A DNA stretch of 31,209 nucleotides from a virus (lineage: Duplodnaviria; Heunggongvirae; Uroviricota; Caudoviricetes). This document shows positions 1,369-26,702 of this stretch, one piece after another; position 1 is the first letter of the stretch; each line of letters starts with the position of its first letter. A program made the position numbers and the translations under genes. The notes beneath the pieces are model-generated. The model was not told the DNA's origin. It did no database searches and saw only the letters and a program-made list of their open reading frames with translations. Location: positions 1 through 31,209 of the IMG/VR virus record IMGVR_UViG_3300029719_000311; one strand, given 5' to 3'.

Positions 1369-1444
1369 GCCGATATAGCTCAGTTGGTAGAGCAGCGCAT
1401 TCGTAATGCGAAGGTCGTAGGTTCGACTCCTATTATCGGCACCA
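1369..1444 (+). tRNA. thrW: tRNA-Thr (anticodon CGT), thrW-like
   Basis: 76-nt sequence GCCGATATAGCTCAGTTGGTAGAGCAGCGCATTCGTAATGCG...GGTTCGACTCCTATTATCGGCACCA with cloverleaf features: acceptor stem GCCGATA/TATCGGC, anticodon loop TTCGTAA, T-loop GGTTCGA, 3' CCA. Confidence 0.95.
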
Positions 1445-1445
1445 T
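1399..1445. repeat. att core, left copy (3' part of thrW, anticodon loop to 3' end)
   Basis: 47 bp identical to 21863..21909; integrase gene starts 14 bp downstream. Confidence 0.85.
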
Positions 1446-1458
1446 TTAAATCAATAAG

Positions 1459-2622
1459 TTACACATCATTAGTACCTTCCTTATTTTTTGACTGGGACAA
1501 ATTTGGGACCGATGGGTTCAGGATCGAGTCTATTTGCCGTGCGTGTTCGGTAAGGTGATTAGGTGCAAGGTGAGCATATCGACGAACCATTTCGATAGAC
1601 TCCCAGCCTCCCATTTCCTGTAACACTGACAACGGGACTCCGGCTTGAACCAGCCAACTTGCCCAGGTGTGTCTCAAGTCGTGAAATCTGAAATCATCAA
1701 TACCAGCCCGTCTCAGCGCCGCTTTCCAGGCTGTGTTTGCGTCATACCGCATCTTCCTTACTGTTGGCGCTTTCGTTCCGTCTGGTTTGGTACAGCTTTC
1801 CTTGTACACAAATACCCAACGGTGATGATTCCCGATTTGTTTTTTCAATACGCGACATGCAGTATCATTCAGCGCAACGCCAATTGCGCGGTTTGATTTA
1901 CTCTCTTCCGGGTTTATCCATGCCACCCGGCGCTGCATATCTATTTGTTGCCATTCAAGGTTGATGATGTTCGAGCGTCTTAAGCCTGTTGCCAGTGCAA
2001 ATTCAACAACAGACTTTAATGGCTCCGGACATTCATCAATCAGCCTTTGTGCTTCATGGGGCTCCAGCCAGCGGATCCGTTTATTCTTTGGTTGAGGCAC
2101 TTTAATAATTGGTGCCTTATCCAGCATTTTCCATTCACGCTCTGCGGCTCTTAGTAGGGCCTTTATAAATGAAAGATGCGTAGCCTTCGTTGCAACGGAC
2201 GCTGGTTTTGGCGTGTATTCTGGAACAGGTTTCCCTTTTTTTCTGCATGCTTCTGCCCTGAGTTTCCAGTTTTCCTCATGACGCCGGTTCGTCATTTTCT
2301 GCATTGCTGAATAAATTTTTGATTCAGTAATGTCTCTTAGTTGCATTCCTGCGAAATGTTGAAGCCAGAATCCGATCCGGCTTTTGTCATCGTCCAGTGA
2401 TTTTTTATGTGCTTTCTCTTCAAGCCACCTGACACACGCTTCCTCGAACGTTATATCAGGTATTTCACCAAGTTTGCTGACCCGCCATGCTTCAGCCTTT
2501 AGCTTGTCATGGAGTTCTGTCGCCTGCCTTTTGTCCTTTGTTCCAAGAGACTGTTTAAATCTTTTACCGTTCGGCAATGTGAAACTGGCGTACCATATTT
2601 CACCTCTGCGGAAGAGTGACAT
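1459..2622 (-). CDS. int: Tyrosine integrase, P22 Int-like (387 aa)
   Basis: Translation [46 protein letters not shown]... ending ...[39 protein letters not shown] with tyrosine-recombinase R..H..R..Y pattern; adjacent to tRNA att site; P22 Int is known to target thrW. Confidence 0.95.
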
Positions 2623-2849
2623 TTTCTTTCCTCTGTTATGCCATCACCCGCGCTCACCTGGACAGTATGCAGCGGAGACTGAAGAGCCGCAATGCAGGCT
2701 TGTCGTGTTGTGAGGTAAGGAGATTTATTCTTAGTGGGATCTTTGCGTGTTGCCTGAAGACGCCCTGTGCGTATCCAGTTAATGGCAGTCGGTCTGGATA
2801 TCTTGAGAAAATGACAGGCCTCATCGAGTGTGAGGCTGTATGGCTCCAT
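2499..2849 (-). CDS. xis: Excisionase (Xis), 116 aa, overlapping the int 5' end
   Basis: Internal ATG of ORF 2499..2933 gives [31 protein letters not shown]... (excisionase-type HTH); position immediately upstream of and overlapping int; start overlaps stop of upstream ORF by 1 nt. Start codon choice uncertain. Confidence 0.65.
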
Positions 2850-3154
2850 TATTTCACCTCTTGCTGTGACATTGTTGAGAAATGGATACCAGCTCGTTGC
2901 TGCCAGACGATCCAACCGAGAGTCATATCCCATGCCATGTATTCGTTATCGCCGTTTTTTGCTCTCCGACGATCTACTAAGTCACCAAAACGCTTTTCCA
3001 TGAATAATTCATAAGCTTCGCGTTCATCTGGTTCTACTTCCAGAGATAGGAGTGCGATTTCATAAGCACGGCGCTCAATATCGTCTCGCACGTCAAGGCT
3101 GCTGATACGCTCTTTAATTTCTTTAATCAGTTCTTTGTCGGTAAAAGTGGTCAT
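2849..3154 (-). CDS. Hypothetical phage early protein (101 aa)
   Basis: ORF translationally coupled to neighbours on both sides (shared boundary bases at 2849 and 3154); acidic helical protein; function unknown. Confidence 0.5.
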   Translation of the reverse strand: MTTFTDKELIKEIKERISSLDVRDDIERRAYEIALLSLEVEPDEREAYELFMEKRFGDLVDRRRAKNGDNEYMAWDMTLGWIVWQQRAGIHFSTMSQQEVK

Positions 3155-3516
3155 TATGCTCCAGCCTCCGGTGCTTTTGGCATTACTGCCCAGTGAGTGA
3201 TATTGACGTTTTCAAGGTCCCCGACCTGAAATGTCCACTGCCATTCTCCGGTTTCTTTTTGTCCCCAGGTGTACCAGAGAGAACGCCAGCCAATTAGCCA
3301 GCCTTCTCCGTTAGCATCGAATAACAAAACACTTTCATTTGCTGGTGGCAGTTCAGTTGACACTGGTATTACTTTGTTTTCCTGTGCTGCACATTTAGCT
3401 TCAAGCGCATCGAATTTACGCACCAGGTATTCAGCATCCGTTTCATTCACTTTCAGATCTCGCGGTACACATCTCCCACGAAGAAACCCTTCCATTTCGA
3501 AAACATTCATGCGCAT
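3154..3516 (-). CDS. Hypothetical phage early protein (120 aa)
   Basis: ORF in the leftward early operon, overlaps HD-domain gene by 10 nt; Trp-rich C-terminus; function unknown. Confidence 0.5.
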   Translation of the reverse strand: MRMNVFEMEGFLRGRCVPRDLKVNETDAEYLVRKFDALEAKCAAQENKVIPVSTELPPANESVLLFDANGEGWLIGWRSLWYTWGQKETGEWQWTFQVGDLENVNITHWAVMPKAPEAGA

Positions 3517-4043
3517 TTGCGTAACTCCGATAATTCGTTAAAGCGTTCCATAAACATCCCGTAGGCATGGCCTGGAGCCAGTGGAATCACGTTGAACATC
3601 TCTGTTGCCGGGATACCTTCCAGCACAGGCCAGAAAGAGCCATCATCAAGCCCGAGATCGCGGCGTTCGGTTGCCAGCATAATGAGATCGGCATATTTCA
3701 CTGGCGTGCTCATAACAGGAGGTAACCCGTATTTCTCACGGATTACGGCGTCTATTTTTTCTTCCATCCGTTTATAGTCAGGAAGAAGTCGTTTCAGTGG
3801 TGCGGGGATGTCCTGGCAATATGCTTCTGTTGCATCATGCATTAAAGCTTCAAAAGCAAATTCCTGCGGCACCAGCTGGCTGCAAAGCACCGCATGTTGG
3901 GCGACACTGTAGAAGTGTGAAAGATGTCCTGCAAAGCGACAGATATTTGAAAGGGAAACCGCGATATCGTTAATAACGATGTCGTCTTTATTTATCCTGT
4001 CATAATAAAAATGCTTCCCGGAAAAAGTTTTAATAAATGACAT
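3507..4043 (-). CDS. HD-domain phosphohydrolase (YfdR-like), about 178 aa
   Basis: HD signature in ...HFYSVAQHAV... and ...ALMHDATEAY...; start chosen at second ATG (MSFIKTF) preceded by GGAGAA; the longer ORF could start at 4070. Confidence 0.7.
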   Translation of the reverse strand: MSFIKTFSGKHFYYDRINKDDIVINDIAVSLSNICRFAGHLSHFYSVAQHAVLCSQLVPQEFAFEALMHDATEAYCQDIPAPLKRLLPDYKRMEEKIDAVIREKYGLPPVMSTPVKYADLIMLATERRDLGLDDGSFWPVLEGIPATEMFNVIPLAPGHAYGMFMERFNELSELRKCA

Positions 4044-4099
4044 TTTGTTCTCCACGTATATGCGCTGCACCGCGCTGAATTCGGGTAAAAGGAAGCCCT

Positions 4100-4587
4100 C
4101 ACCGTCCGGCGATTATTGAGTCAATTACATTTCCATAAATGCCCCCGTAGGGGCGGTTAGTTTCTCCACAAAACAGAGAAGAACACCTGCGGTGGCAGCC
4201 GCCCGGATGGATTGGGTTATGAGCCCGTCGTCCGGTGATGCTCTTCTCTGTTTTGTAAAAAGGACGGTACCAGCCGGAAGCAAGGGTACAAACTGGTACC
4301 GCCAGGACTACACACAGCATAAAGTTGTGGTGCCGGGTGCCTCCCGGTGCCTGGCGAAGGTTGCACACCAGGCGGGTGGGTATCCACAGAAGGTCGACTG
4401 TCAGCCTCAACCTTAACCCGCGTGCGCTGAGCCGCATTCACCACAACGCTAAGGATTCTCTCTGGTTGAAAATACTTAGCTGTTATGTGCCTGCTTTTAG
4501 CCACATCAGGCGAGGTGGACCTAGTTATTCCCCAACAACAAGGATTCGGTTAATCTGGTTATCCCCAACAACGCAAAAGGAAAAGAA
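4100..4587. other. GC-rich non-coding segment with nested inverted repeats and two 16-bp direct repeats; candidate structured RNA or early-left regulatory region
   Basis: Perfect 15-bp inverted repeat ACAAAACAGAGAAGA (4168..4182 / 4242..4256) around a 59-nt GC-rich spacer; GGTACCAG/CTGGTACC inverted repeat (4266..4300); GCCCC..GGGGC hairpin (4141..4155); direct repeats GTTATYCCCCAACAAC at 4524..4540 and 4558..4572; track ORFs here overlap on both strands and lack RBS. Confidence 0.3.
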
Positions 4588-5022
4588 ATGTCCGGTAATA
4601 TCTATACGCTGTACAAATCCCACTGTGAAAATGTTGGAAAGTATCGGGGCATTGAAATCAGTGGGGTAGTGTCATCAGTCGAAATAAGCAAAGTTGAATC
4701 AAGGGCAACATTACTTACTCTTTTGGACCTTGTCTTACATGAGCACCGGAAGAAATTCGGCACTCCCTATAATCAGTTGAATGGGAAAAAGGCTCTGGTT
4801 CACCTTATTCTGATGAAGCATCACTGGATGCCAAAACAGATTAATGAGATGAAATTTGATGAACTTCTTCTTTCAATTCAGGATGAACTCACACTTGATA
4901 AAATAAGCGTAACCGCCCAGAAATTTTTAGATTATCGAGACTGGAGATCACAAATTCATCACTTTGATGATTTTGACGAAAATGAATGGGATCCTAATTT
5001 GTCTGCACAATATCTAAAGTAA
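4588..5022 (+). CDS. Hypothetical protein (144 aa), rightward gene at the sieB/N-equivalent position
   Basis: ATG preceded by AAAGGAAAAG; moderately AT-rich; orientation opposite to surrounding early-left genes; no recognisable motifs. Confidence 0.5.
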   Translation: MSGNIYTLYKSHCENVGKYRGIEISGVVSSVEISKVESRATLLTLLDLVLHEHRKKFGTPYNQLNGKKALVHLILMKHHWMPKQINEMKFDELLLSIQDELTLDKISVTAQKFLDYRDWRSQIHHFDDFDENEWDPNLSAQYLK

Positions 5023-5200
5023 CATCCTGTGATAAAACCGTGATTTCCTGATCCAGTTTTTTTAAGGAGTCTATTGTTTCCTGTCGATAAGACAGCACTT
5101 CACGAAGCTGGTTTATAGCTGCCAGCTTCTTTGTCATCCACTCATAAATTTCCTCATCTGTGTAGCCAGGCGCGACGATTTTGGGTTCTGTTTTGTGCAT
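4994..5200 (-). CDS. Hypothetical small protein (68 aa)
   Basis: Start at internal ATG (MHKTEPKIVAPGYTDEEIYEW...) preceded by AGGAG at 7-nt spacing; convergent with and overlapping the 3' end of the 144-aa gene. Confidence 0.4.
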   Translation of the reverse strand: MHKTEPKIVAPGYTDEEIYEWMTKKLAAINQLREVLSYRQETIDSLKKLDQEITVLSQDVTLDIVQTN

Positions 5201-5397
5201 TTCACATCTCCTCAAGTTATCAGTTACTTGTTGATGGGGACCAGATTGTTAAAGAGCTAAGCGTCCTGTAGGGCGCTTTTTTGTTGCTAACGAATCATCC
5301 TGGACTTCATATGCCCCAGGCGGCTACTTCGTGGGCGTCCTGCCTGTTCGTTGTTTCGCTTGGGTACATTATGTATCTCGAAGGTACATTGTCAAGT

Positions 5398-5434: not shown

Positions 5435-6109
5435 TTAGGCTTTGATTTTGTATCTTCTTGGTTTTCCTGAGAAAATCACTGTACCAATTATAGAGCAATT
5501 ACCGTTGATCTTAATGTAAGGCTCAGGCCAGTTTGGGTTTAACGCTTTGAGATAACGCTGTGTCCCATCTTCTATCAACCTTTTGAAGGTGGTTTCGCCT
5601 GTATCGTGCATCAATGCAATAACGTCGTCACCGTGGCAGGCAGGTACTTCAGGATCGACAAAAATCATGTCTCCCGGGCGGTACTCATCAATCATTGAAT
5701 CACCTATCACCCGCAAGATATAAGTCATTTCCCCACAGGGTACAGGGCAGGGATACGTTTCTGCTGTGCTCAAATCAACCTCAGAATATCCAACTTCTTT
5801 CCATGCTCCGGCCTGTACCCATGATATGACAGGGACTAATGTGATTTGTTTATTAGTGATTGAAACATCAGGTTTTTTTGTGATGTTCGTTGTCTGGTGT
5901 TCTTGATCGAGCCATCCGACAGGCAGGTCGAAACATTTTTCGATGTGTCGTGCCATGCTGTCACCGATATTTTTAGTAGCACCATCTCCCATAAACCTGC
6001 TGGTCTGGGTTGGCTCGCGATCAATCATAGTGGCAAAGGAAGAATTCCCGCCAACACCATCTCTCAGTTTTCTGGCGTTAGACCGCCGGATGTCATGGAT
6101 TGTTTTCAT
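5435..6109 (-). CDS. Phage repressor, cI/C2-like (N-terminal HTH, C-terminal S24 LexA-type peptidase domain)
   Basis: C-terminal ...VIGDSMIDEYRPGDMIFVDPE... (S24 GDSM serine motif) plus a downstream Lys; divergent from cro-like gene with palindromic operators between them. Confidence 0.85.
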   Translation of the reverse strand: MKTIHDIRRSNARKLRDGVGGNSSFATMIDREPTQTSRFMGDGATKNIGDSMARHIEKCFDLPVGWLDQEHQTTNITKKPDVSITNKQITLVPVISWVQAGAWKEVGYSEVDLSTAETYPCPVPCGEMTYILRVIGDSMIDEYRPGDMIFVDPEVPACHGDDVIALMHDTGETTFKRLIEDGTQRYLKALNPNWPEPYIKINGNCSIIGTVIFSGKPRRYKIKA

Positions 6110-6123
6110 AACGAAATTAAAAC

Positions 6124-6194
6124 CCTTGTACCGTTAAGGTACAAGTATCTTGAAGGTTCATTTCAATCATGTAATATGTACACCGGAGGTACAT
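6124..6194. promoter_or_regulatory. OR-like operator region between repressor and cro-like gene
   Basis: 21-bp palindrome CTTGTACC-GTTAA-GGTACAAG (6124..6144) and second dyad ATGTAC-N8-GTACAT (6175..6194) overlapping the cro RBS; related GGTACATT sites downstream of cI at 5364..5395. Confidence 0.45.
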
Positions 6195-10952: not shown

Positions 10953-12755
10953 GTGACCGTGAGAGCACTACTGACCCCTGAAATTGCCCCGCGTATGGGG
11001 ATCGTATTGTTCAGACCAGGTTCAGAGCTGATGCCCCTGTTTATGCAGGGGCGTGTCCTGCTGGAGCCTGAGCCGGAACGTTATTCATCTTTCGCCAGTG
11101 GTGCTGTTCCGGCGGCATCACAACCGCTGGCGGATGATCCTGCCGTTCGGGCCGTGTTCCGCAATGAGGCAGTGATCCGTCGTGCTGGTGGCGTGGAATG
11201 TCTTGAAAGCTGGTTACTTCGTGAAAAAGGCTGCCAGTGGCCTCATTCCGACTGGCACAGCGAGAACATGACCACAATGCGACACGCGCCGGGTGCAATC
11301 CGTCTGTGCTGGCACTGCGATAACCAGCTGCGCGATCAGTTCACGGAACGGCTGGAATCAATGGCAACGGATAACTGTGCCCGCTGGGTGTTGTCTGTTG
11401 TGCGTCGGGATCTCGGTTTTGATGACAGTCACGTTGTGACAATGCCGGAACTGTGCTGGTGGCTGGTTCGTAATGACCTGGCGGGAGCCTTGCCGGAAAG
11501 TGCAGCCCGTAAGGCACTGAGATTACCGAAGCCTGTTGTGCCGTCTGTCACCCGGGAAAGTGACCTTGTTCCTTCGGTTCCTGCCACCAGCATCATCCAG
11601 GATAAAGTGAAAAAGGTGCTGGCGCTGAAAGTGGATCCGGAGTCGCCGGAGTCTTTTATGTTACGCCCAAAACGTCGCCGCTGGGTTAACGAAAAGTATC
11701 TGGATTTTTTCAAAGGCGAGATAGGGAAAACCCATCTGGCTCAGGAGCTGTGGACGCAGATTGATAACGGTCAGCTTGCGCCTGACCTGGCTGAAATCAG
11801 GACATCCATTACGGATGTCAGCAATGAAATCACACAGACCGTCAATAAGAAACTGGAAGACCAGAGTGCAGCGATCCAGCAGATACAGAAGGTTCAGGTT
11901 GATACAAATAATAATCTGAACAGCATGTGGGCTGTGAAGCTGCAGCAGATGCAGGATGGACGCCTTTATATTGCGGGTATCGGTGCCGGTATTGAGAACA
12001 CCCCTGACGGCATGCAGAGTCAGGTGCTGCTGGCGGCGGACAGGATTGCGATGGTTAATCCTGCGAATGGCAACACAAAACCGATGTTTGTTGGTCAGGG
12101 CGATCAGATATTCATGAACGACGTGTTCCTGAAACGCCTGACGGCCCCCACCATTACCAGCGGTGGAAATCCACCGGCATTTTCCCTGACACCGGACGGA
12201 AAGCTGACCGCTAAAAATGCGGATATCAGTGGCAGTGTGAATGCGAACGCCGGGACGCTCAACAATGTCACGGTAAATGAAAACTGTACGATTAAGGGCA
12301 TGCTGGAGGCGACTCAGGTCAGAGGTGACTTCGTTAAAGCTGTATCCAAATCATTCCCGAAACAGGCTGGTACGTGGGGTAACACGGAAACACCAAACGG
12401 GACGGTTACAGTTACCATAAGCGATGATCATAACTTTGACCGTCAAATCATTATTCCGCCCATTATCTTTAACGGAATAGCGTATAGCGATCCGGGAAGT
12501 GGTAATAACCCGGGAGGTACAAGATACACGGGTTATGGTTTTGAAGTTCGCAAAAACGGTGTATTAATCGCATCCAGAGAAACTAAAGGGGCTATTCCCG
12601 GTAGCTACAGTGCGGTTATTGATATGCCGAGTGGCAGGGGAAGCGTCACTCTGGAGTTTAAGGTTTTCCATAAAGGCAATCAGTGGGCAGGTAATATCAC
12701 CGACTGTACGGTGATTGTGACCAAAAAAGCCGCTTCCGGCATCAGTATTCGTTGA
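10953..12755 (+). CDS. Chimeric ORF: N-terminal Cys/His-motif domain (DUF968-like early protein) fused to C-terminal tail-fibre J-like region
   Basis: GTG start adjacent to KilA-N stop; N-terminal about 280 aa contains CWHCDNQ; C-terminal about 300 aa is Gly/Thr/Asn-rich tail-fibre-like sequence; immediately followed by lom-stf-tfa as in the lambda J-lom-stf-tfa order. Confidence 0.55.
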   Translation: MTVRALLTPEIAPRMGIVLFRPGSELMPLFMQGRVLLEPEPERYSSFASGAVPAASQPLADDPAVRAVFRNEAVIRRAGGVECLESWLLREKGCQWPHSDWHSENMTTMRHAPGAIRLCWHCDNQLRDQFTERLESMATDNCARWVLSVVRRDLGFDDSHVVTMPELCWWLVRNDLAGALPESAARKALRLPKPVVPSVTRESDLVPSVPATSIIQDKVKKVLALKVDPESPESFMLRPKRRRWVNEKYLDFFKGEIGKTHLAQELWTQIDNGQLAPDLAEIRTSITDVSNEITQTVNKKLEDQSAAIQQIQKVQVDTNNNLNSMWAVKLQQMQDGRLYIAGIGAGIENTPDGMQSQVLLAADRIAMVNPANGNTKPMFVGQGDQIFMNDVFLKRLTAPTITSGGNPPAFSLTPDGKLTAKNADISGSVNANAGTLNNVTVNENCTIKGMLEATQVRGDFVKAVSKSFPKQAGTWGNTETPNGTVTVTISDDHNFDRQIIIPPIIFNGIAYSDPGSGNNPGGTRYTGYGFEVRKNGVLIASRETKGAIPGSYSAVIDMPSGRGSVTLEFKVFHKGNQWAGNITDCTVIVTKKAASGISIR

Positions 12756-17024: not shown

Positions 17025-20000
17025 ATGGAACCCATATCAATTACAGTGGCAACTTATGTAGCAACTAAACTTATTGATCAATTCATCTCTCAAGAAGGAT
17101 ATGGTTGTATTAAGAAAGCATTATTCCCCCAAAAAAGATATGTGGATAGATTATATCAACTAATTGAAGAGACGGCAATTGAGTTTGAAGAAACATATCC
17201 AGTAGAAAGTGGAGCAATACCATTTTATCATTCCGAACCATTGTTTGAGATGTTGAATGAGCACATCTTTTTTAAAGAGTTCCCTGACAAAGAGATATTA
17301 TTAGACAAGTTCAAAGAATATCCAAGTATCACTCCCCCAACTCAACAACAACTCAGCCTTTTTTATGAGATGTTATCATTAAAAATCAATAATTGTTCGA
17401 AGTTAAAAAAGCTACATATCGAAGAAACGTATAAAGAAAAAATATTCGATATTAATGAAGAGCTCATTCAAGTCAAACTTATTTTACGGTCTATAGATGA
17501 GAAACTAACTTTTCACTTAAGTGATGATTGGTTAAATGAAAAAAATAGTCAAGCAATAGCTGACTTGGGAGGTCGATACACACCCGAACTCAACGTAAAG
17601 CTAGAAATAGCAGAGATATTTGATGGCCTCGGTAGAACTAATGATTTTTCTAAAATATTTTATTCGCATATAGATAGCTTTCTGGTCGCTGGAAAGAAAT
17701 TACATAGTTGCGATGTAATTTCCTCAGAATTATTTGAAATAAACCAGTCCTTAAAAGAAATTTCTGATATATATCAGGAGATTAATTTTTCTAAATTAGA
17801 TGAAATCCCTATAAATAAATTTAATAACTATGTTTCTAGCTGCCAGACAGCTATTGGCGGAGCGGTATCAATATTGTGGGAACTCCGAGAAAAGTCAGAG
17901 CAAGTAGGTGAAACCAAGCATTACAGTGATAAGTATTCATCTACTCTGCGAATGCTTCGGGAATTTGACTATGCGTGCAATGAATTACGTATATTCATTA
18001 ATTCAACAACAGTGAAGTTGGCTAACAACCCATTCTTACTTCTCGAAGGAAAAGCAGGAATTGGTAAGTCTCATTTACTGGCTGATGTGATTAAAAATCG
18101 AATTGCTTCTGGGTATCCTTCACTACTCATACTAGGGCAACAACTTACTTCAGATGAATCTCCATGGTCACAAATCTTCAAGAGATTACAGCTTAAAATC
18201 ACTTCTCGTGAATTCCTAGAAAAACTGAATTTATATGGCAAAAAAACAGGAAAAAGAGTCTTAGTTTTTATTGATGCTATTAATGAAGGTAATGGAAATA
18301 AATTCTGGAATGACAATATTAACAGTTTTGTCGATGAAATCAGATGCTTTGAATGGCTTGGTCTGATAATGTCAGTCAGAACAACATATAGAAATGTAAC
18401 AATTTCACATGAGAATGTTGTGCGAAATAATTTTGAAATTCATGAACATATTGGATTCCAGAACGTTGAGTTGGAAGCGGTTAGTCTATTTTATGATTAT
18501 TACAATATTGAGAGGCCTTCATCTCCTAACCTTAATCCAGAGTTTAAAAATCCTCTATTTCTTAAGTTATTGTGTGAAGGCATTAAGAAAAATGGTTTAA
18601 CCAAAGTGCCTGTTGGATTTAATGGGATTTCAAATATTTTTAACTTTTTAGTTGAAGGGGTAAATAAATCATTAGCATCGCCAAGAAAATATGCATTCGA
18701 TCCCAGTTTTCCTCTTGTTAAAGATGCTCTCAATGAAATCATAAAATTCAAATTAGAGATTGGTCGTAATAGTATTTCACTTAAAGATGCTCACTCAGTG
18801 GTTCAATCTGTAGTTAATGATTATGTTGCTGATAAAACCTTCCTCAGCGCCTTGATTGACGAAGGATTATTGACTAAAGGCATAGTGAGAAATGATGATA
18901 ATTCTACTGAGGAAGTAGTTTATGTGGCTTTTGAAAGGTTTGATGATCATTTAACTGTTAATTTTTTATTAAATGATGTTGAAAATATCGAAAGTGAATT
19001 TAAGCCTGATGGTCGTCTGAAAAAATATTTTCATGATGAATGTGATTTTTATATAAAATCGGGAATAGTAGAGGCGTTGTCTATTCAATTGCCAGAAAGG
19101 TATGAAAAAGAGCTTTATGAATTTCTGCCGGAGTTCAGCAATAATCTTAAATTACTAGAAGCCTTTATTGATAGCTTGATATGGCGCGATATTAAGGCTA
19201 TTGATTTCGAAAAAATTAGACCTTTCATCAATGAACATGTTTTTAAATTTAAAGATAGTTTTGATCATTTCCTCGAGGCAGTGATCTCTATTTCAGGTTT
19301 AGTTGGCCATCCCTTTAATGCTAATTTCTTGCATGATTGGCTAAAAGATTATTCTTTGGCAAATCGAGATTCGTTTTGGACTACAGAACTTAAATATAAA
19401 TATAGTGAAGACTCAGCATTTAGGCATCTAATCGATTGGGCATGGGCCAGAACAGATAAAAGCTTTGTTTCGGATGAGTCAATCGAGCTAGTTGCAACTA
19501 GTTTATGCTGGTTTTTAACTTCTAGTAACCGAGAACTTCGAGATTGCTCAACTAAGGCTTTAGTGAGTTTACTCGAGCCAAGAATTCCTGTATTGAGAAA
19601 AATAATTGATAAGTTTTATGGTGTAAATGATCCTTACGTTTGGGAAAGAATATTTGCAGTTGCATTAGGCTGTACATTGCGAACTGATAATATTAAAGAA
19701 CTAAAATATTTAGCCGAAACTGTTTACCAAAAGGTATTTTGTTCTAAGTATGTGTATCCAAATATATTACTTAGAGATTATGCTAGAGAGATTATTGAAT
19801 TTGCTAATCATCTTGGATTGGAACTTGAAAGCATTGAATTATCCAAGACTAGACCACCCTACAACAGCATTTGGCCTGACAAGATTCCTTCAAAAGAGGA
19901 ACTAGAGTCCCTTTATGATAAAGAACCTTATCGGGAACTCTGGAGCTCTATTATGGAAGATGGTGACTTTTCACGATATACTATTGGAACAAATTATAAT

Positions 20001-21479
20001 CATTCTGATTGGTCTGGTTGCAAGTTTAATGAAACCCCTGTTGACCGTAAGCAAGTTTTTAAAACTTTCAAATGTAAACTAACTGATCAACAAAAAGACT
20101 TGTATGATGCCACAGATCCTTTCATTTATGATGATAAATGCGAAGGAATTAAATTTGGTCGTGTGGTCGGTAGAAAATCACAGGAAGAAATAAAGGCGAG
20201 CAAGAAATTATTTAAGAATTCATTGTCATACGATCTGTTAAGTGAGTTTGAAAATGAAATAGAGCCATACCTGGATCATAATAATAATCTGCTGGAAACT
20301 GATAAACACTTTGATCTTCGACTAGCTCAACAATTTATATTCAATCGTGTTATAGAGCTTGGTTGGGATCCGGAGAAGCATGGTAATTTTGACCAACAAA
20401 TAGGAACTGGACGTGGACGTAGAGAGGCATTCCAAGAACGGATTGGTAAAAAATACCAATGGATTGCTTATTATGAATACATGGCAAGGCTAGCCGATAA
20501 TTTTACTCGTTTTGAAGGTTATGGTGACGAACGAAAGGAAAATCCATACCAAGGGCCATGGGAGCCTTACGTAAGAGATATAGATCCCACTATCTTACTT
20601 AAAGAAACTGGAACGAAAAAAATAAGCAATAAAGAAATGTGGTGGCTTAATGATGAAGTGTTTGATTGGACTTGCTCTAATGAAGACTGGGTTAAAAGTT
20701 CTACTACTATAACTAATTCATATGCTTTTATTGAAGTTAAAGATGATAATGGTGATGAATGGATAGTATTAGAAAGTCATCCATCATGGAAAGAACCAAA
20801 AATTATTGGAAACGATGATTGGGGGCACCCACGAAAAGAGGTTTGGTATCAGATCAGAAGTTATATCGTTAAAGTTGAAGAATTTGAAAATTTTAGATGT
20901 TGGGCAATAGCTCAAGACTTTATGGGCAGGTGGATGCCGGAATGTACTGATAGATACCAATTATTTAATAGGGAGTACTATTGGTCCGAAGCATTTAAGT
21001 CTTTTAAATCAGATTATTATGGTGGATCTGACTGGACTTCGGTAACAGACCGGGAGTCTGGAGCTAAGATAGCTGATGTTAGTGTCACTTCGATTAATTA
21101 TTTGTGGGAAGAGGAGTTCGACAAATCAAAAATAGAAACTTTGAATTTTTTGAAGCCTAGTAACTTAATCTTTGAAAAGATGGGATTAAAAAGTGGGGAA
21201 GTAGAGGGTAGCTTCAATGATGAAAATGGAACTATGGTTTGCTTTGCAGCTGAAGCTGTATATGCTTCAAAGCCGCATCTACTTGTTAAAAAAGAACCAT
21301 TTTTAACAATGTTAAGGGACAATGGTTTTGAAATCGTTTGGACATTATTAGGTGAAAAGGGCGTTATAGGGGGCTCACTCATATCAAGTCATCATTATGG
21401 TCGACAGGAGTTTAGTGGAGCATTTTATTATGAAGACAGTCAGCTAACAGGAAGTCATAAAACTAGCTTTACGAGATAA
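17025..21479 (+). CDS. Large P-loop NTPase with NACHT/STAND-like motifs (1484 aa); candidate antiphage defence protein
   Basis: Walker A GKAGIGKS (18048..18071), Walker B VLVFIDAINEG (18258..18290), downstream IMSVRTT sensor-1-like motif; about 330-aa N-terminal and about 1050-aa C-terminal helical extensions; low GC versus neighbours; located between tfa and attR. Confidence 0.6.
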   Translation: MEPISITVATYVATKLIDQFISQEGYGCIKKALFPQKRYVDRLYQLIEETAIEFEETYPVESGAIPFYHSEPLFEMLNEHIFFKEFPDKEILLDKFKEYPSITPPTQQQLSLFYEMLSLKINNCSKLKKLHIEETYKEKIFDINEELIQVKLILRSIDEKLTFHLSDDWLNEKNSQAIADLGGRYTPELNVKLEIAEIFDGLGRTNDFSKIFYSHIDSFLVAGKKLHSCDVISSELFEINQSLKEISDIYQEINFSKLDEIPINKFNNYVSSCQTAIGGAVSILWELREKSEQVGETKHYSDKYSSTLRMLREFDYACNELRIFINSTTVKLANNPFLLLEGKAGIGKSHLLADVIKNRIASGYPSLLILGQQLTSDESPWSQIFKRLQLKITSREFLEKLNLYGKKTGKRVLVFIDAINEGNGNKFWNDNINSFVDEIRCFEWLGLIMSVRTTYRNVTISHENVVRNNFEIHEHIGFQNVELEAVSLFYDYYNIERPSSPNLNPEFKNPLFLKLLCEGIKKNGLTKVPVGFNGISNIFNFLVEGVNKSLASPRKYAFDPSFPLVKDALNEIIKFKLEIGRNSISLKDAHSVVQSVVNDYVADKTFLSALIDEGLLTKGIVRNDDNSTEEVVYVAFERFDDHLTVNFLLNDVENIESEFKPDGRLKKYFHDECDFYIKSGIVEALSIQLPERYEKELYEFLPEFSNNLKLLEAFIDSLIWRDIKAIDFEKIRPFINEHVFKFKDSFDHFLEAVISISGLVGHPFNANFLHDWLKDYSLANRDSFWTTELKYKYSEDSAFRHLIDWAWARTDKSFVSDESIELVATSLCWFLTSSNRELRDCSTKALVSLLEPRIPVLRKIIDKFYGVNDPYVWERIFAVALGCTLRTDNIKELKYLAETVYQKVFCSKYVYPNILLRDYAREIIEFANHLGLELESIELSKTRPPYNSIWPDKIPSKEELESLYDKEPYRELWSSIMEDGDFSRYTIGTNYNHSDWSGCKFNETPVDRKQVFKTFKCKLTDQQKDLYDATDPFIYDDKCEGIKFGRVVGRKSQEEIKASKKLFKNSLSYDLLSEFENEIEPYLDHNNNLLETDKHFDLRLAQQFIFNRVIELGWDPEKHGNFDQQIGTGRGRREAFQERIGKKYQWIAYYEYMARLADNFTRFEGYGDERKENPYQGPWEPYVRDIDPTILLKETGTKKISNKEMWWLNDEVFDWTCSNEDWVKSSTTITNSYAFIEVKDDNGDEWIVLESHPSWKEPKIIGNDDWGHPRKEVWYQIRSYIVKVEEFENFRCWAIAQDFMGRWMPECTDRYQLFNREYYWSEAFKSFKSDYYGGSDWTSVTDRESGAKIADVSVTSINYLWEEEFDKSKIETLNFLKPSNLIFEKMGLKSGEVEGSFNDENGTMVCFAAEAVYASKPHLLVKKEPFLTMLRDNGFEIVWTLLGEKGVIGGSLISSHHYGRQEFSGAFYYEDSQLTGSHKTSFTR

Positions 21480-21862: not shown

Positions 21863-21909
21863 ATTCGTAATGCGAAGGTCGTAGGTTCGACTCCTATTAT
21901 CGGCACCAT
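21863..21909. repeat. att core, right copy (attR of element 1 / attL of element 2)
   Basis: 47 bp identical to 1399..1445 (partial thrW 3' end ATTCGTAATGCGAAGGTCGTAGGTTCGACTCCTATTATCGGCACCAT). Confidence 0.9.
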
Positions 21910-22072
21910 CACCTAGTTTTCCCAAGTCAACCCACATCAACAAAATCATTTAAAAACATATATATTACGTTGTTTTCATACGTTTGAGGTCAACCCTTGT
22001 CTCTTGAAATCAACACGCGGTTGGGGGCACAATCAGGGGCATGTTCTGTTCGATCTAGGAAATGTGCCCCCA

Positions 22073-23263
22073 ATGATGCTGAATGCCCGCAAGGTTGAAG
22101 CTGCGAAAGGAAAAGAGAAGAGCTACAAGCTGTTTGATGGAGGTGGCCTATACCTTCAGGTCGAACCTAATGGCTCGCGTTACTGGCGTATGAAATACCG
22201 TTTTGCTGGTAAAGAGAAACGATTGTCCTTTGGTGTTTATCCAACAGTCACACTTGCTGATGCCAGACAAAAACGAGAAGACGCGAAGAAACTACTCGCA
22301 GCAGGTGAAGATCCCGGCGAAGTCAAAAAAGCCAAAAAGCAGGCTTTAAATGCAGCGAGTGAGACACTTAACCCATTCAGAGAAGTGGCGTTAGAGTGGC
22401 ACAAAATGAAATCACCCAAATGGTCTGAGGGCTATGCTTCCGACATCATTGAGGCATTCGAGAAAGACATTTTCCCGCATATTGGGCACAGACCTATAGC
22501 TGATATTCAGCCCCTTGAACTGCTTGAAGTTCTGAGGTTGATAGAAGCTCGAGGCGCTATGGAGAAAGCGAAGAAAGTCCGTCAGCGATGCGGTGAAGTT
22601 TTTCGCTATGCCATCGTAACGGGTAGGGCAATCTACAATCCGGCACCGGATCTTGCCAGTGCGATGCAAGGACATGAAGCAGTCCACTATCCATTCCTCA
22701 AAGCCAACGAACTACCGGAGTTCTTTAATGCCCTTAATTCTTATTCAGGAAGTCCAATTGTATTGTTGGGGGCGCATTTACTTATCCTGACAGGTCTACG
22801 AACTGGAGAACTACGAGCAGGTGAGTGGCGAGAGGTGGATTTTGATAATGCGGTGTGGGAGATCCCAAAAGAACGTATGAAAATGCGTAGGAGCCATATT
22901 GTCCCGTTGTCAAAACAAGCATTATCCCATCTCAAAAGTTTGAAAGAACTAACTGGGAACTACCCGCTGATGTTCCCTGGACGCAACGATCCCAGCAAAT
23001 TTATGAGTGAAGCAAGCATTAATCAGGTGTTTAAACGTATTGGATATGCAGGGCGTGTTACGGGGCATGGTTTCAGGCATACGATGAGTACAATCCTACA
23101 TGAGAAAGGATTTAACAGCGCTTGGATTGAAACCCAGCTTGCTCATTCGGACAAAAACTCTATTCGTGGAATTTATAACCATGCCCAATATCTCGAAGGG
23201 AGAAGAGAAATGATGCAATGGTATGCTAATTATTTATCTGAGCAAATTGGTACTCATAAATGA
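22073..23263 (+). CDS. Tyrosine integrase, P4-type
   Basis: ...KEKSYKLFDGGGLYLQVEPNGSRYWRMKYRFAGKEKRLSFGVYPTVTLADARQKREDAKKLL... N-terminal arm-binding pattern of P4-family integrases; C-terminal ...GHGFRHTMSTILHE... catalytic region; true start probably ATG at 22073/22076 rather than ORF start 22004. Confidence 0.9.
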   Translation: MMLNARKVEAAKGKEKSYKLFDGGGLYLQVEPNGSRYWRMKYRFAGKEKRLSFGVYPTVTLADARQKREDAKKLLAAGEDPGEVKKAKKQALNAASETLNPFREVALEWHKMKSPKWSEGYASDIIEAFEKDIFPHIGHRPIADIQPLELLEVLRLIEARGAMEKAKKVRQRCGEVFRYAIVTGRAIYNPAPDLASAMQGHEAVHYPFLKANELPEFFNALNSYSGSPIVLLGAHLLILTGLRTGELRAGEWREVDFDNAVWEIPKERMKMRRSHIVPLSKQALSHLKSLKELTGNYPLMFPGRNDPSKFMSEASINQVFKRIGYAGRVTGHGFRHTMSTILHEKGFNSAWIETQLAHSDKNSIRGIYNHAQYLEGRREMMQWYANYLSEQIGTHK

Positions 23264-25958: not shown

Positions 25959-26702
25959 ATGAACAATACCGCAGTAAATAACAACCTTTCCACTTTTCCG
26001 GCTGTAACGCAGCGGGCACTGGAAACCATGAACACAGCCAGAAACGCATGGCTTGAAGCACGTCGTCAGCAGAAAGCGGCAGCGGATAATATTGCGACAA
26101 TCCGCCAGCGTCGCGCTGAAATGGAAGCCACGACGAACACACTGAATGAGGAGTGGCGCACGCTGTTTCGTGAAAGTCAGGGCGTGGTCTCAAAGGAAAT
26201 GAAAAAACTGCGCACGGAAATTGCGCTGGGACGAGAAACGCTTGAGGATTTTGATGAGCTGCTGGCGGCTCAGGAAAGCGAAAATGCACTTTTGCCGCAG
26301 AAAGCTGCAGAATTAGCCGGAAAGTATATCCACGCGCATAACATTCTTGTGGATATTCGCGCAAAACAAATCTGGGAGGATTTTATGCAGTCGCATGGAA
26401 AAGCGCTTATTCAGACGCTGAGCCTGCTTAAATCCACAATGGGCCGGGAAGCCAGTGCCGTTGTGGGTGTGGTGAATTCAGTTAATGACCCGGACACAGT
26501 GCTGAAAGACTTTATTCATAAACATATCACCAGACCGGCTCTGGCTAACGATGCGATGCCTGAGCAGGACCCGGTGTTTAAACTGGCGGGAGTTGCCCCG
26601 GATTATGCGGCGCGTCTGGATTTCAGTAATCAACTCTCTCCGGCAGCTATGCATAAAATTAAGGTTCGTCAGGAACTTGCTGAGAAGGAGAAAGCAGTAT
26701 GA
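25959..26702 (+). CDS. Sid-like capsid size determination protein (247 aa)
   Basis: Helical 247-aa protein (P4 Sid is 244 aa), first gene of the operon ending in an ogr/delta gene; AGGAG RBS. Confidence 0.5.
   Translation: MNNTAVNNNLSTFPAVTQRALETMNTARNAWLEARRQQKAAADNIATIRQRRAEMEATTNTLNEEWRTLFRESQGVVSKEMKKLRTEIALGRETLEDFDELLAAQESENALLPQKAAELAGKYIHAHNILVDIRAKQIWEDFMQSHGKALIQTLSLLKSTMGREASAVVGVVNSVNDPDTVLKDFIHKHITRPALANDAMPEQDPVFKLAGVAPDYAARLDFSNQLSPAAMHKIKVRQELAEKEKAV

What the first reader, a model, noticed from the sequence alone, without database searches (positions are those of the whole stretch)
3507..4043. HD-domain (YfdR-like) phosphohydrolase in the early-left operon
A prophage-encoded HD-domain protein could hydrolyse nucleotides or signalling molecules, or interfere with host replication as reported for the cryptic-prophage protein YfdR binding DnaA. 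The HD motif is intact, so the gene is likely functional.
Basis: partly seen in the sequence, partly recalled or inferred. Interest (0 to 1): 0.35.

Follow-up and report, generated by a model that had tools for sequence, protein, structure and literature searches.

The report
Known prophage gene yfdR (HD phosphohydrolase)
The ORF is an intact copy of the well-known E. coli prophage gene yfdR, an HD-domain 5'-deoxynucleotidase that also binds the replication initiator DnaA; it sits in a decayed lambda-like prophage and is ordinary.

Summary
**Verdict: observation confirmed, gene already known.**

- **Identity.** Window 3507..4043 (minus strand) encodes a 178-aa protein. It is 176/178 identical to E. 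coli K-12 CPS-53 YfdR, and identical DNA in RefSeq is named "yfdR: 5'-deoxynucleotidase".
- **Active site.** The H...HD...D metal site is intact (H50, H69-D70, D119) and conserved across 76 diverse relatives.
- **Selection.** dN/dS against the K-12 copy is 0.029.
- **Structure.** The AlphaFold model (pLDDT 97.7) matches the HD protein Atu1052 (PDB 2gz4, TM 0.78). It matches YfbR only weakly.
- **Family.** The protein misses the Pfam YfbR-like and NCBIfam YfbR cut-offs. It is therefore a YfdR/Atu1052-type HD protein, not a YfbR orthologue.
- **Frequency.** The gene occurs in 2,971 of 5,426 complete E. coli genomes and in phages SfII, SfIV and Stx2c phages.
- **Setting.** It lies downstream of a repressor-controlled pL-like promoter, translationally coupled to yfdS and yfdT, next to xis and int. 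The host element is a 20.5-kb deletion-derivative lambdoid prophage at tRNA-Thr.
- **Caveat.** yfdQ, which the published DnaA-inhibition phenotype required, is absent here. That effect cannot simply be transferred to this locus.

Interest is low.

The parts
3507..4043 (-). yfdR CDS, 178 aa. HD-domain 5'-deoxynucleotidase and DnaA-binding protein. Metal ligands: H50 (3894-3896), H69-D70 (3834-3839), D119 (3687-3689).
4050..4053 (-). Shine-Dalgarno GGAG, 6 nt upstream of the yfdR ATG.
   Evidence: sequence read directly
3154..3516 (-). yfdS (DUF551, 120 aa). Its start overlaps the yfdR stop by 10 nt, which implies translational coupling.
2849..3154 (-). yfdT (101 aa). Its start overlaps the yfdS stop by 1 nt.
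2499..2933 (-). Excisionase-like HTH_17 protein (RefSeq uses a shorter start).
1459..2622 (-). Tyrosine integrase, adjacent to tRNA-Thr (1369-1444).
4140..4155 (.). GC-rich hairpin (TGCCCCCGTAGGGGCG). DNA homology to K-12 CPS-53 ends at 4154, so this is the mosaic joint where yfdQ is present or absent in relatives.
4255..4477 (-). STnc100/PasD-type prophage sRNA-like element with its own terminator. It occupies the place that yfdQ holds in CPS-53.
5368..5395 (-). pL-like sigma-70 promoter (11/12 match), overlapped by operator copies at 5372-5388 and 5352-5370.
5435..6109 (-). cI-like repressor (HTH plus Peptidase_S24). Three operator copies lie at 6127-6193.
1399..1445 (+). attL copy of the tRNA-Thr 3' repeat. 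The attR copy is at 21863-21909, so the prophage remnant is about 20.5 kb.

Best explanation
**What it is.** Window 3507-4043(-) is yfdR. It encodes a small all-helical HD-domain metal-dependent phosphohydrolase. One divalent metal, Co2+ by analogy with YfbR, is held by H50, H69, D70 and D119. It activates water to remove the 5'-phosphate of deoxynucleoside monophosphates, giving deoxynucleoside plus phosphate. R36 and D78 are placed like the deoxyribose-contacting R18 and D77 of YfbR.

**Where it sits.** The gene is an accessory gene in the int-proximal leftward early region of an SfII/SfIV-like lambdoid prophage at thrW. It is translationally coupled to yfdS and yfdT. It is most likely switched on when the cI-like repressor is inactivated.

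**Second activity.** The same protein (2 conservative substitutions from K-12) was shown to bind DnaA domain I through Phe46 and to compete moderately with DiaA and DnaB. It can therefore damp host replication initiation when abundant.

**Shown versus inferred.**
- Shown here: identity, motif, fold, selection, gene order, promoter and operators.
- Taken from the literature: dNMPase activity and DnaA binding.
- Inferred: expression from pL, and physiological role.
For: - 99% aa identity to K-12 YfdR. Identical DNA in RefSeq is named yfdR, 5'-deoxynucleotidase.
- PHROG 318 'deoxyribonucleoside 5' monophosphate phosphatase', E 6e-110.
- H50 invariant; H69, D70, E73, D78, D119 and R36 at least 90% conserved in 76 diverse relatives.
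- BLASTP and hhalign place HDxxE...D of YfdR on H68-D69-E72-D77 of YfbR. The roles of H33, H68, D69, D137, R18, W19 and D77 in YfbR are given in PMC8177086.
- AF2 model pLDDT 97.7, all-helical. Best PDB match is the HD protein Atu1052, TM 0.78; the only other matches above chance are YfbR-type HD proteins.
- dN/dS 0.029 against K-12.
- In distant phages the homologue sits between helicase and DNA polymerase (phiKT) or between ligase and DNA polymerase (a Burkholderia phage). This fits a nucleotide or DNA-metabolism role.
- DnaA binding and competition with DiaA and DnaB: PMC4776307.
- Promoter plus shared operators.
Against: - YfdR's affinity for nucleotides is reported as much lower than YfbR's, and its function is called 'elusive' (PMC4776307).
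- Deleting yfdR did not change CMP yield in an engineered strain (PMC10870394).
- Deleting yfdQRST gave no replication or HU phenotype.
- The protein scores below the Pfam YfbR-like gathering score (24.3 vs 25.9) and far below the NCBIfam YfbR equivalog cut-off (19.9 vs 122).
- Structural similarity to YfbR is weak (TM 0.43, E 0.5).
- W19 of YfbR corresponds to F37 here. This correspondence rests on motif spacing only.
- Terminator-like hairpins lie between pL and yfdR.
Confidence: 0.8

Rival explanations
1. The selected function is protein-protein interference rather than catalysis. On this reading YfdR is chiefly a phage-encoded binder of DnaA domain I (Phe46). It blocks DiaA and DnaB recruitment and pauses host initiation after prophage induction, and the HD site is secondary.
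For: - Purified YfdR binds DnaA, dependent on Phe46, and moderately displaces DiaA and DnaB-DnaC. Multicopy yfdQRS or yfdQRT inhibits initiation in vivo (PMC4776307; reviews).
- Low nucleotide affinity is reported.
- The gene sits in the exo-xis-like region, where lambdoid phages keep host-cell-cycle modifiers (gene order).
Against: - The in vivo effect required yfdQ, which is missing here. The window's yfdQ-less junction is found in 464 genomes, against 2,669 with yfdQ-yfdR.
- The catalytic residues are the most conserved positions of a very large family found in phages of hosts as far from E. coli as Bacillus, Caulobacter and Rhizobium. That points to selection on catalysis.
- The effects were moderate and seen only in multicopy.
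Confidence: 0.25
2. The physiological substrate is not a canonical dNMP. It could instead be another phosphorylated nucleotide: a dNTP (DatZ-like triphosphohydrolase), a damaged or modified nucleotide, or a signalling nucleotide.
For: - Low affinity for dNMPs is reported.
- Weak match to PHROG 7076, 'dATP triphosphohydrolase' (22.9 bits, E 1.2e-4).
- A phage HD enzyme assigned to the YfbR-like Pfam family is a specific dTMP phosphatase with Co2+ (PMC12697855). Specificity therefore varies among phage HD enzymes of this type.
Against: - The only activity reported for this protein is dNMP hydrolysis.
- The site is mononuclear H...HD...D, without the extra His residues of HD phosphodiesterases (motif classes in PMC8177086).
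- No HD-GYP motif.
- No dNTPase structure appeared among the PDB fold matches.
Confidence: 0.15
3. The gene is a decaying relic with no function, carried passively in a defective prophage.
For: The host element has lost its Q, lysis, packaging, head and most tail genes through a DUF968::J fusion deletion. Deleting yfdQRST in K-12 gave no replication-initiation or HU-resistance phenotype.
Against: - Full-length ORF with a Shine-Dalgarno site.
- dN/dS 0.029.
- The same gene is present in viable phages SfII, SfIV and Stx2c phages at 98-99% aa identity.
- All catalytic residues are intact.
Confidence: 0.05

Closest known systems
E. coli K-12 YfdR (b2361, cryptic prophage CPS-53/KpLE1)
   Same: - 176/178 aa identical.
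- Same length.
- Same downstream genes (yfdS, yfdT, excisionase region).
- 95.4% DNA identity over window 2793-4154.
   Different: - Two conservative substitutions: R16K and E170D.
- The upstream gene yfdQ (DUF2303) is absent and is replaced by an STnc100-like sRNA region and an ECs1072-family gene.
- The element is integrated at tRNA-Thr (thrW) rather than argW.
Atu1052 of Agrobacterium tumefaciens (PDB 2gz4), an HD-domain protein of unknown function
   Same: Closest solved structure: sequence E 1e-13, profile E 1e-30, Foldseek TM 0.78 over the whole chain. It shares the R-aromatic...H...HD..E....D...D pattern.
   Different: About 26% identity. It has an insertion between the first His and the HD pair, it is chromosomal, and it has no biochemical characterisation.
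E. coli YfbR 5'-deoxynucleotidase (PDB 2paq/2par; Pfam PF12917)
   Same: HD superfamily with a mononuclear H...HD...D site. The HDxxE....D segment aligns. The reported reaction type is the same: dNMP to deoxynucleoside.
   Different: - Only about 40-70 residues align.
- Below the Pfam and NCBIfam cut-offs.
- TM 0.43.
- Phe in place of Trp19.
- Much lower nucleotide affinity is reported.
- YfbR is a housekeeping gene, not a phage gene.
Phage T5 Dmp (deoxynucleoside-5'-monophosphatase)
   Same: Same nominal reaction, and an early phage gene.
   Different: No detectable homology: BLASTP E 3.6, hhalign probability 0.1%. It is analogous only.
Roseophage DSS3_VP1 Dtm (HD-family dTMP phosphatase)
   Same: A phage-encoded HD hydrolase that its authors assign to PF12917. 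It prefers Co2+ and dephosphorylates dNMPs (PMC12697855).
   Different: It is specific for dTMP and serves dU-DNA synthesis in a lytic phage. Homology to YfdR was not tested here because the sequence was not on hand.

Membership tests
HD-domain metal-dependent phosphohydrolase superfamily | H...HD...D metal-binding motif | tested here: met
   H50, H69-D70 and D119 are present. H50 is invariant and the others are at least 90% conserved in 76 relatives.
HD-domain metal-dependent phosphohydrolase superfamily | All-alpha HD fold | tested here: met
   AF2 model pLDDT 97.7, helical core. All PDB matches above noise are HD proteins.
YfdR orthologous group (E. coli CPS-53 YfdR) | Near-identical full-length sequence | tested here: met
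   176/178 identical, no gaps. RefSeq names the identical DNA yfdR.
YfdR orthologous group (E. coli CPS-53 YfdR) | Synteny yfdR-yfdS-yfdT next to xis/int | tested here: met
YfdR orthologous group (E. coli CPS-53 YfdR) | 5'-deoxynucleotidase activity; binding to DnaA domain I (Phe46) | not testable with these tools
   Known only from the literature for the K-12 protein (PMC4776307).
yfdQRST replication-inhibiting gene set (Noguchi & Katayama 2016) | Presence of yfdQ (DUF2303) together with yfdR and yfdS or yfdT | tested here: not met
   Homology to CPS-53 ends at 4154 and no DUF2303 ORF lies upstream. RefSeq annotates only a frameshifted hypothetical gene there.
YfbR-like 5'-deoxynucleotidase (Pfam PF12917; NCBIfam NF003009) | Score at or above the curated cut-off | tested here: not met
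   Pfam 24.3 bits against 25.9. NCBIfam 19.9 against 122.
YfbR-like 5'-deoxynucleotidase (Pfam PF12917; NCBIfam NF003009) | Substrate-specificity residues R18, W19 and D77 | tested here: inconclusive
   D78 aligns with D77. R36-F37 correspond to R18-W19 by spacing to the first His only. Trp is replaced by Phe.
YfbR-like 5'-deoxynucleotidase (Pfam PF12917; NCBIfam NF003009) | Close structural similarity to YfbR | tested here: not met
   2par TM 0.43, E 0.5.
Atu1052-type HD subfamily (PDB 2gz4) | Full-length sequence and fold similarity | tested here: met
   E 1.1e-13 (single sequence), 1.4e-30 (profile), TM 0.78.
T5 Dmp family | Sequence homology | tested here: not met
Known anti-phage defence systems (PADLOC) | Match to any defence-protein model | tested here: not met
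   No hits for YfdR, YfdS or YfdT.

The most novel reading that the evidence does not exclude
In yfdQ-less prophages such as this one, YfdR together with the translationally coupled YfdS and YfdT could still act as a repressor-controlled, dual-function module. On SOS induction it would both drain dNMPs and block DnaA-DnaB/DiaA contacts. The host would stop initiating at oriC while the phage or remnant is derepressed. This would make YfdR a moonlighting enzyme-inhibitor with a real physiological role, rather than a multicopy artefact.
Probability: 0.15. Interest if true: 0.4.

Novelty: already known. Interest (0 to 1): 0.1.

Why it matters
It matters little beyond correct annotation. The gene is present in over half of complete E. 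coli genomes and is already named and partly characterised.

Two points are useful:
- The RefSeq name "5'-deoxynucleotidase" rests on one biochemical report of weak activity. The protein belongs to an Atu1052-type HD subfamily that no Pfam model captures above threshold, although it has more than 22,000 clusters at 50% identity.
- The published DnaA-inhibition phenotype should not be assumed for the roughly 15% of yfdR loci, like this one, that lack yfdQ.

Tried and rejected
1. **T5 Dmp as the source of the PHROG name.** No homology to YfdR was found.
2. **YfbR orthology.** Rejected: the protein is below both curated cut-offs and the structural match is weak.
3. **Defence-system membership.** No PADLOC hit for YfdR, YfdS or YfdT.
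4. **The 'frameshifted hypothetical protein' RefSeq annotates upstream of yfdR (about 4125-4444).** Neither overlapping minus-strand ORF (4099-4437, 4217-4504) matches a PHROG family. The region matches the sRNA family STnc100 just below its gathering score, so an RNA gene is the better reading.
5. **Reading Zimmerman et al. 2008 for YfdR kinetics.** The paper is not held. Its content is cited only through PMC4776307 and PMC8177086.
6. **Searching for an N-type antiterminator between pL and yfdR.** The only ORF there (about 4994-5215, PHROG 1744, unknown function) is not Arg-rich, so nothing was found.
7. **Finding the window's own strain among complete E. coli genomes.** No record shows the DUF968::J deletion junction.
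8. **hhalign of the family profile against YfbR.** It aligned only the HD segment and misplaced the first His. The R36/F37 to R18/W19 correspondence therefore rests on spacing alone.

Full report
**1. Observation**

The minus strand of the window carries an ORF that ends at 3507. It has an ATG at 4043 and an upstream in-frame GTG at 4070.

The ATG is the real start, for three reasons:
- GGAG lies at 4053-4050, 6 nt upstream.
- RefSeq, SfII and SfIV annotate the same 537-nt CDS.
- Relatives align from residue 1.

The product is 178 aa. The HD signature can be read directly from the sequence:

| Residue | Window coordinates |
|---|---|
| H50 | 3894-3896 |
| H69 | 3837-3839 |
| D70 | 3834-3836 |
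| D119 | 3687-3689 |

The strand is minus.

**2. Identity**

- The protein is 176/178 identical to E. coli K-12 YfdR (b2361) of cryptic prophage CPS-53. The differences are R16K and E170D.
- DNA identical to window 3000-5100 occurs in several complete E. coli chromosomes, where RefSeq names the gene "yfdR: 5'-deoxynucleotidase".
- yfdR-like DNA (at least 80% coverage) is present in 2,948 of 5,426 complete E. coli genomes, with up to 4 copies per genome.
- The protein is encoded at 98-99% identity by the viable temperate phages SfII, SfIV, cdtI, 2H10 and many Stx2/Stx2c phages.
- Against the K-12 copy there are 17 synonymous and 2 non-synonymous differences, giving dN/dS 0.029. yfdS (0.116) and yfdT (0.076) are also constrained.

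The gene is maintained by selection. It is not a relic.

**3. Family placement**

*Profile libraries.*
- Pfam gives only sub-threshold matches: PF12917 YfbR-like at 24.3 bits against a gathering score of 25.9, and HD_3 at 17 bits.
- The NCBIfam YfbR equivalog scores 19.9 against a cut-off of 122.
- PHROG 318, "deoxyribonucleoside 5' monophosphate phosphatase", matches at E 6e-110.

*Family size and conservation.*
- An exhaustive HMMER scan finds 22,731 50%-identity cluster representatives at E<=1e-3, and 15,309 at E<=1e-10.
- In an alignment of 76 full-length representatives (39-68% identical to the query), H50 is invariant. R36, H69, D70, E73, D78 and D119 are at least 90% conserved.

*Solved structures.*
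- By sequence, the closest solved structure is Atu1052 (2gz4; E 1e-13 for the single sequence, 1e-30 for the profile). YfbR reaches only 1e-4.
- An AlphaFold2 model built from the alignment is very confident (pLDDT 97.7, pTM 0.92) and helical.
- Foldseek against the PDB returns 2gz4 at TM 0.78. The other HD proteins come far behind at TM 0.4-0.5 and non-significant E-values. They are AF1432-type 1ynb, HDDC2, YfbR 2par/2pau and OxsA.

*Residue correspondence with YfbR.*
- BLASTP and hhalign place YfdR H69-D70-E73-D78 on YfbR H68-D69-E72-D77.
- PMC8177086 records that H33, H68, D69 and D137 bind Co2+ in YfbR, and that R18, W19 and D77 set deoxyribose specificity.
- By spacing to the first His, YfdR R36-F37 correspond to R18-W19. 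This is inference, because hhalign did not align that segment correctly.

*Conclusion.* This is a bona fide mononuclear-type HD phosphohydrolase of an Atu1052/YfdR subfamily. It is related to YfbR but is not a member of its family.

**4. What is known about the protein (literature)**

- Noguchi & Katayama 2016 (PMC4776307) found that multicopy yfdQ + yfdR + (yfdS or yfdT) suppresses over-initiation mutants and inhibits initiation in wild type.
- In the same study, purified His-YfdR bound DnaA in a Phe46-dependent way and moderately displaced DiaA and DnaB-DnaC. Deleting yfdQRST had no phenotype.
- They cite Zimmerman 2008 for YfdR being a structural homologue of YfbR with much lower nucleotide affinities, "function elusive". 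Zimmerman 2008 itself is not held.
- Later papers repeat the DnaA-domain-I story without adding data.
- A metabolic-engineering paper lists yfdR among CMP phosphatases, but its deletion did not raise CMP yield.

**5. Context in this window**

*The element.*
- tRNA-Thr(CGU) lies at 1369-1444.
- Its 3' part (1399-1445) is repeated at 21863-21909. These repeats bound a 20.5-kb element.

*Gene order from the left.*

| Feature | Coordinates (strand) |
|---|---|
| int | 1459-2622 (-) |
| Excisionase-like HTH | 2499-2933 (-) |
| yfdT | 2849-3154 (-) |
| yfdS (DUF551) | 3154-3516 (-) |
| yfdR | 3507-4043 (-) |
| Hairpin | 4140-4155 |
| STnc100-like sRNA region | 4255-4477 (-) |
| ECs1072-family gene | 4588-5022 (+) |
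| Small ORF (PHROG 1744) | 4994-5215 (-) |
| cI-like repressor | 5435-6109 (-) |

Rightward of the repressor come cro/cII-like, replication, RusA and KilA-N genes.

- yfdR/yfdS overlap by 10 nt and yfdS/yfdT by 1 nt, so the three genes are translationally coupled.

*Promoter and operators.*
- An 11/12 sigma-70 match (TTGACA-16-CATAAT) lies at 5395-5368(-), just past the cI terminator.
- It is overlapped by a 17-nt palindrome, TGTATCTCGAAGGTACA (5372-5388). Its relatives occur three times in the cI-cro intergenic region, at 6127-6143, 6144-6160 and 6177-6193.
- This is a classical oL/oR arrangement and supports "early-left operon".
- Two terminator-like structures lie between pL and yfdR: the sRNA terminator near 4255 and the hairpin at 4140-4155. 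I found no N-like antiterminator. Read-through is therefore inferred.

*The yfdQ gap.*
- DNA homology to K-12 CPS-53 runs from 2793 to 4154 (95.4%) and stops at the hairpin.
- CPS-53, SfIV and ST64B carry yfdQ (DUF2303) immediately upstream. This window and SfII do not.
- Among complete E. coli genomes the yfdQ-yfdR junction is found in 2,669 and the window's junction in 464.
- Because yfdQ was required for the in vivo DnaA phenotype, that phenotype cannot be assumed here.

**6. Wider phage context**

Homologues at 27-50% identity occur in lytic and temperate phages of Caulobacter, Bacillus, Rhizobium, Vibrio, Pseudomonas, Stenotrophomonas and others.

- In phiKT the gene sits between the DNA helicase and DNA polymerase genes.
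- In a Burkholderia phage it sits between ligase and DNA polymerase.
- In a Mu-like Klebsiella phage it lies in the early region near gemA.

This linkage to replication modules fits a nucleotide-pool enzyme. It also suggests that catalysis, not DnaA binding, is the ancestral selected function.

T5 Dmp, the classical phage 5'-deoxynucleotidase, is unrelated. No PADLOC defence model matches YfdR, YfdS or YfdT.

**7. Mechanism and rivals**

*Best explanation (0.8).* YfdR is a metal-dependent dNMP phosphatase with an intact active site. It is expressed with yfdS and yfdT from the repressor-controlled leftward region. It has a documented secondary ability to bind DnaA domain I.

*Rivals.*
- DnaA interference is the main selected role (0.25). 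This is weakened by the absence of yfdQ and by family-wide conservation of the catalytic residues.
- The true substrate is something other than canonical dNMPs (0.15).
- The gene is a dead relic (0.05). This is contradicted by dN/dS and by the presence of the gene in viable phages.

**8. Verdict**

The gene is already known and very common. Interest is low.

Noticed in passing
window 4255-4477 (-): This stretch matches Rfam STnc100 (RF02076) over the full model at 43.1 bits (gathering score 47, E 5e-8), with its own terminator. It lies under a RefSeq 'frameshifted hypothetical protein'. It is probably a PasD/STnc100-family prophage sRNA, in the position that yfdQ holds in CPS-53.
   Followed up: partly
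window 10953-12755 (+), junction near 11697: A 600-aa ORF fuses a DUF968 nin-region protein to the C-terminal tip domains of tail protein J. This marks an internal deletion of Q, lysis, packaging, head and most tail genes, so the yfdR prophage is defective. An intact relative is in NZ_CP083497. No complete E. coli genome in the collection shows this junction.
   Followed up: partly
window 17025-21479 (+): A 1,484-aa protein with no Pfam hit is an Avs2 (AVAST type 2) anti-phage NTPase (PADLOC 1752 bits). It is carried at the right end of the prophage remnant, after lom, the tail fibre gene and tfa.
   Followed up: yes
window 1399-1445 and 21863-21909; 22004-23263 (+); 25959-26702 (+): The direct repeat of the tRNA-Thr 3' half bounds the 20.5-kb remnant. 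Immediately after the second copy come a P4-type integrase and a Psu-like gene. A second element, a P4-like satellite, is therefore integrated in tandem at thrW.
   Followed up: partly
window 5352-5390 and 6127-6193: A 17-nt palindromic operator (TGTAyC-N5-GGTACA) occurs twice at the pL-like promoter and three times between the cI-like and cro-like genes. This is a lambda-like oL/oR layout.
   Followed up: yes
window 4588-5022 (+): An ECs1072-family phage-associated gene (NCBIfam 157.8 bits, PHROG 5286, function unknown) is oriented against the leftward operon. It converges on the small PHROG 1744 ORF and looks like a moron.
   Followed up: no
YfdR family at large: A family with more than 22,000 50%-identity clusters has no Pfam model that reaches its gathering score for this member. 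Most relatives carry no precomputed Pfam domain.
   Followed up: no
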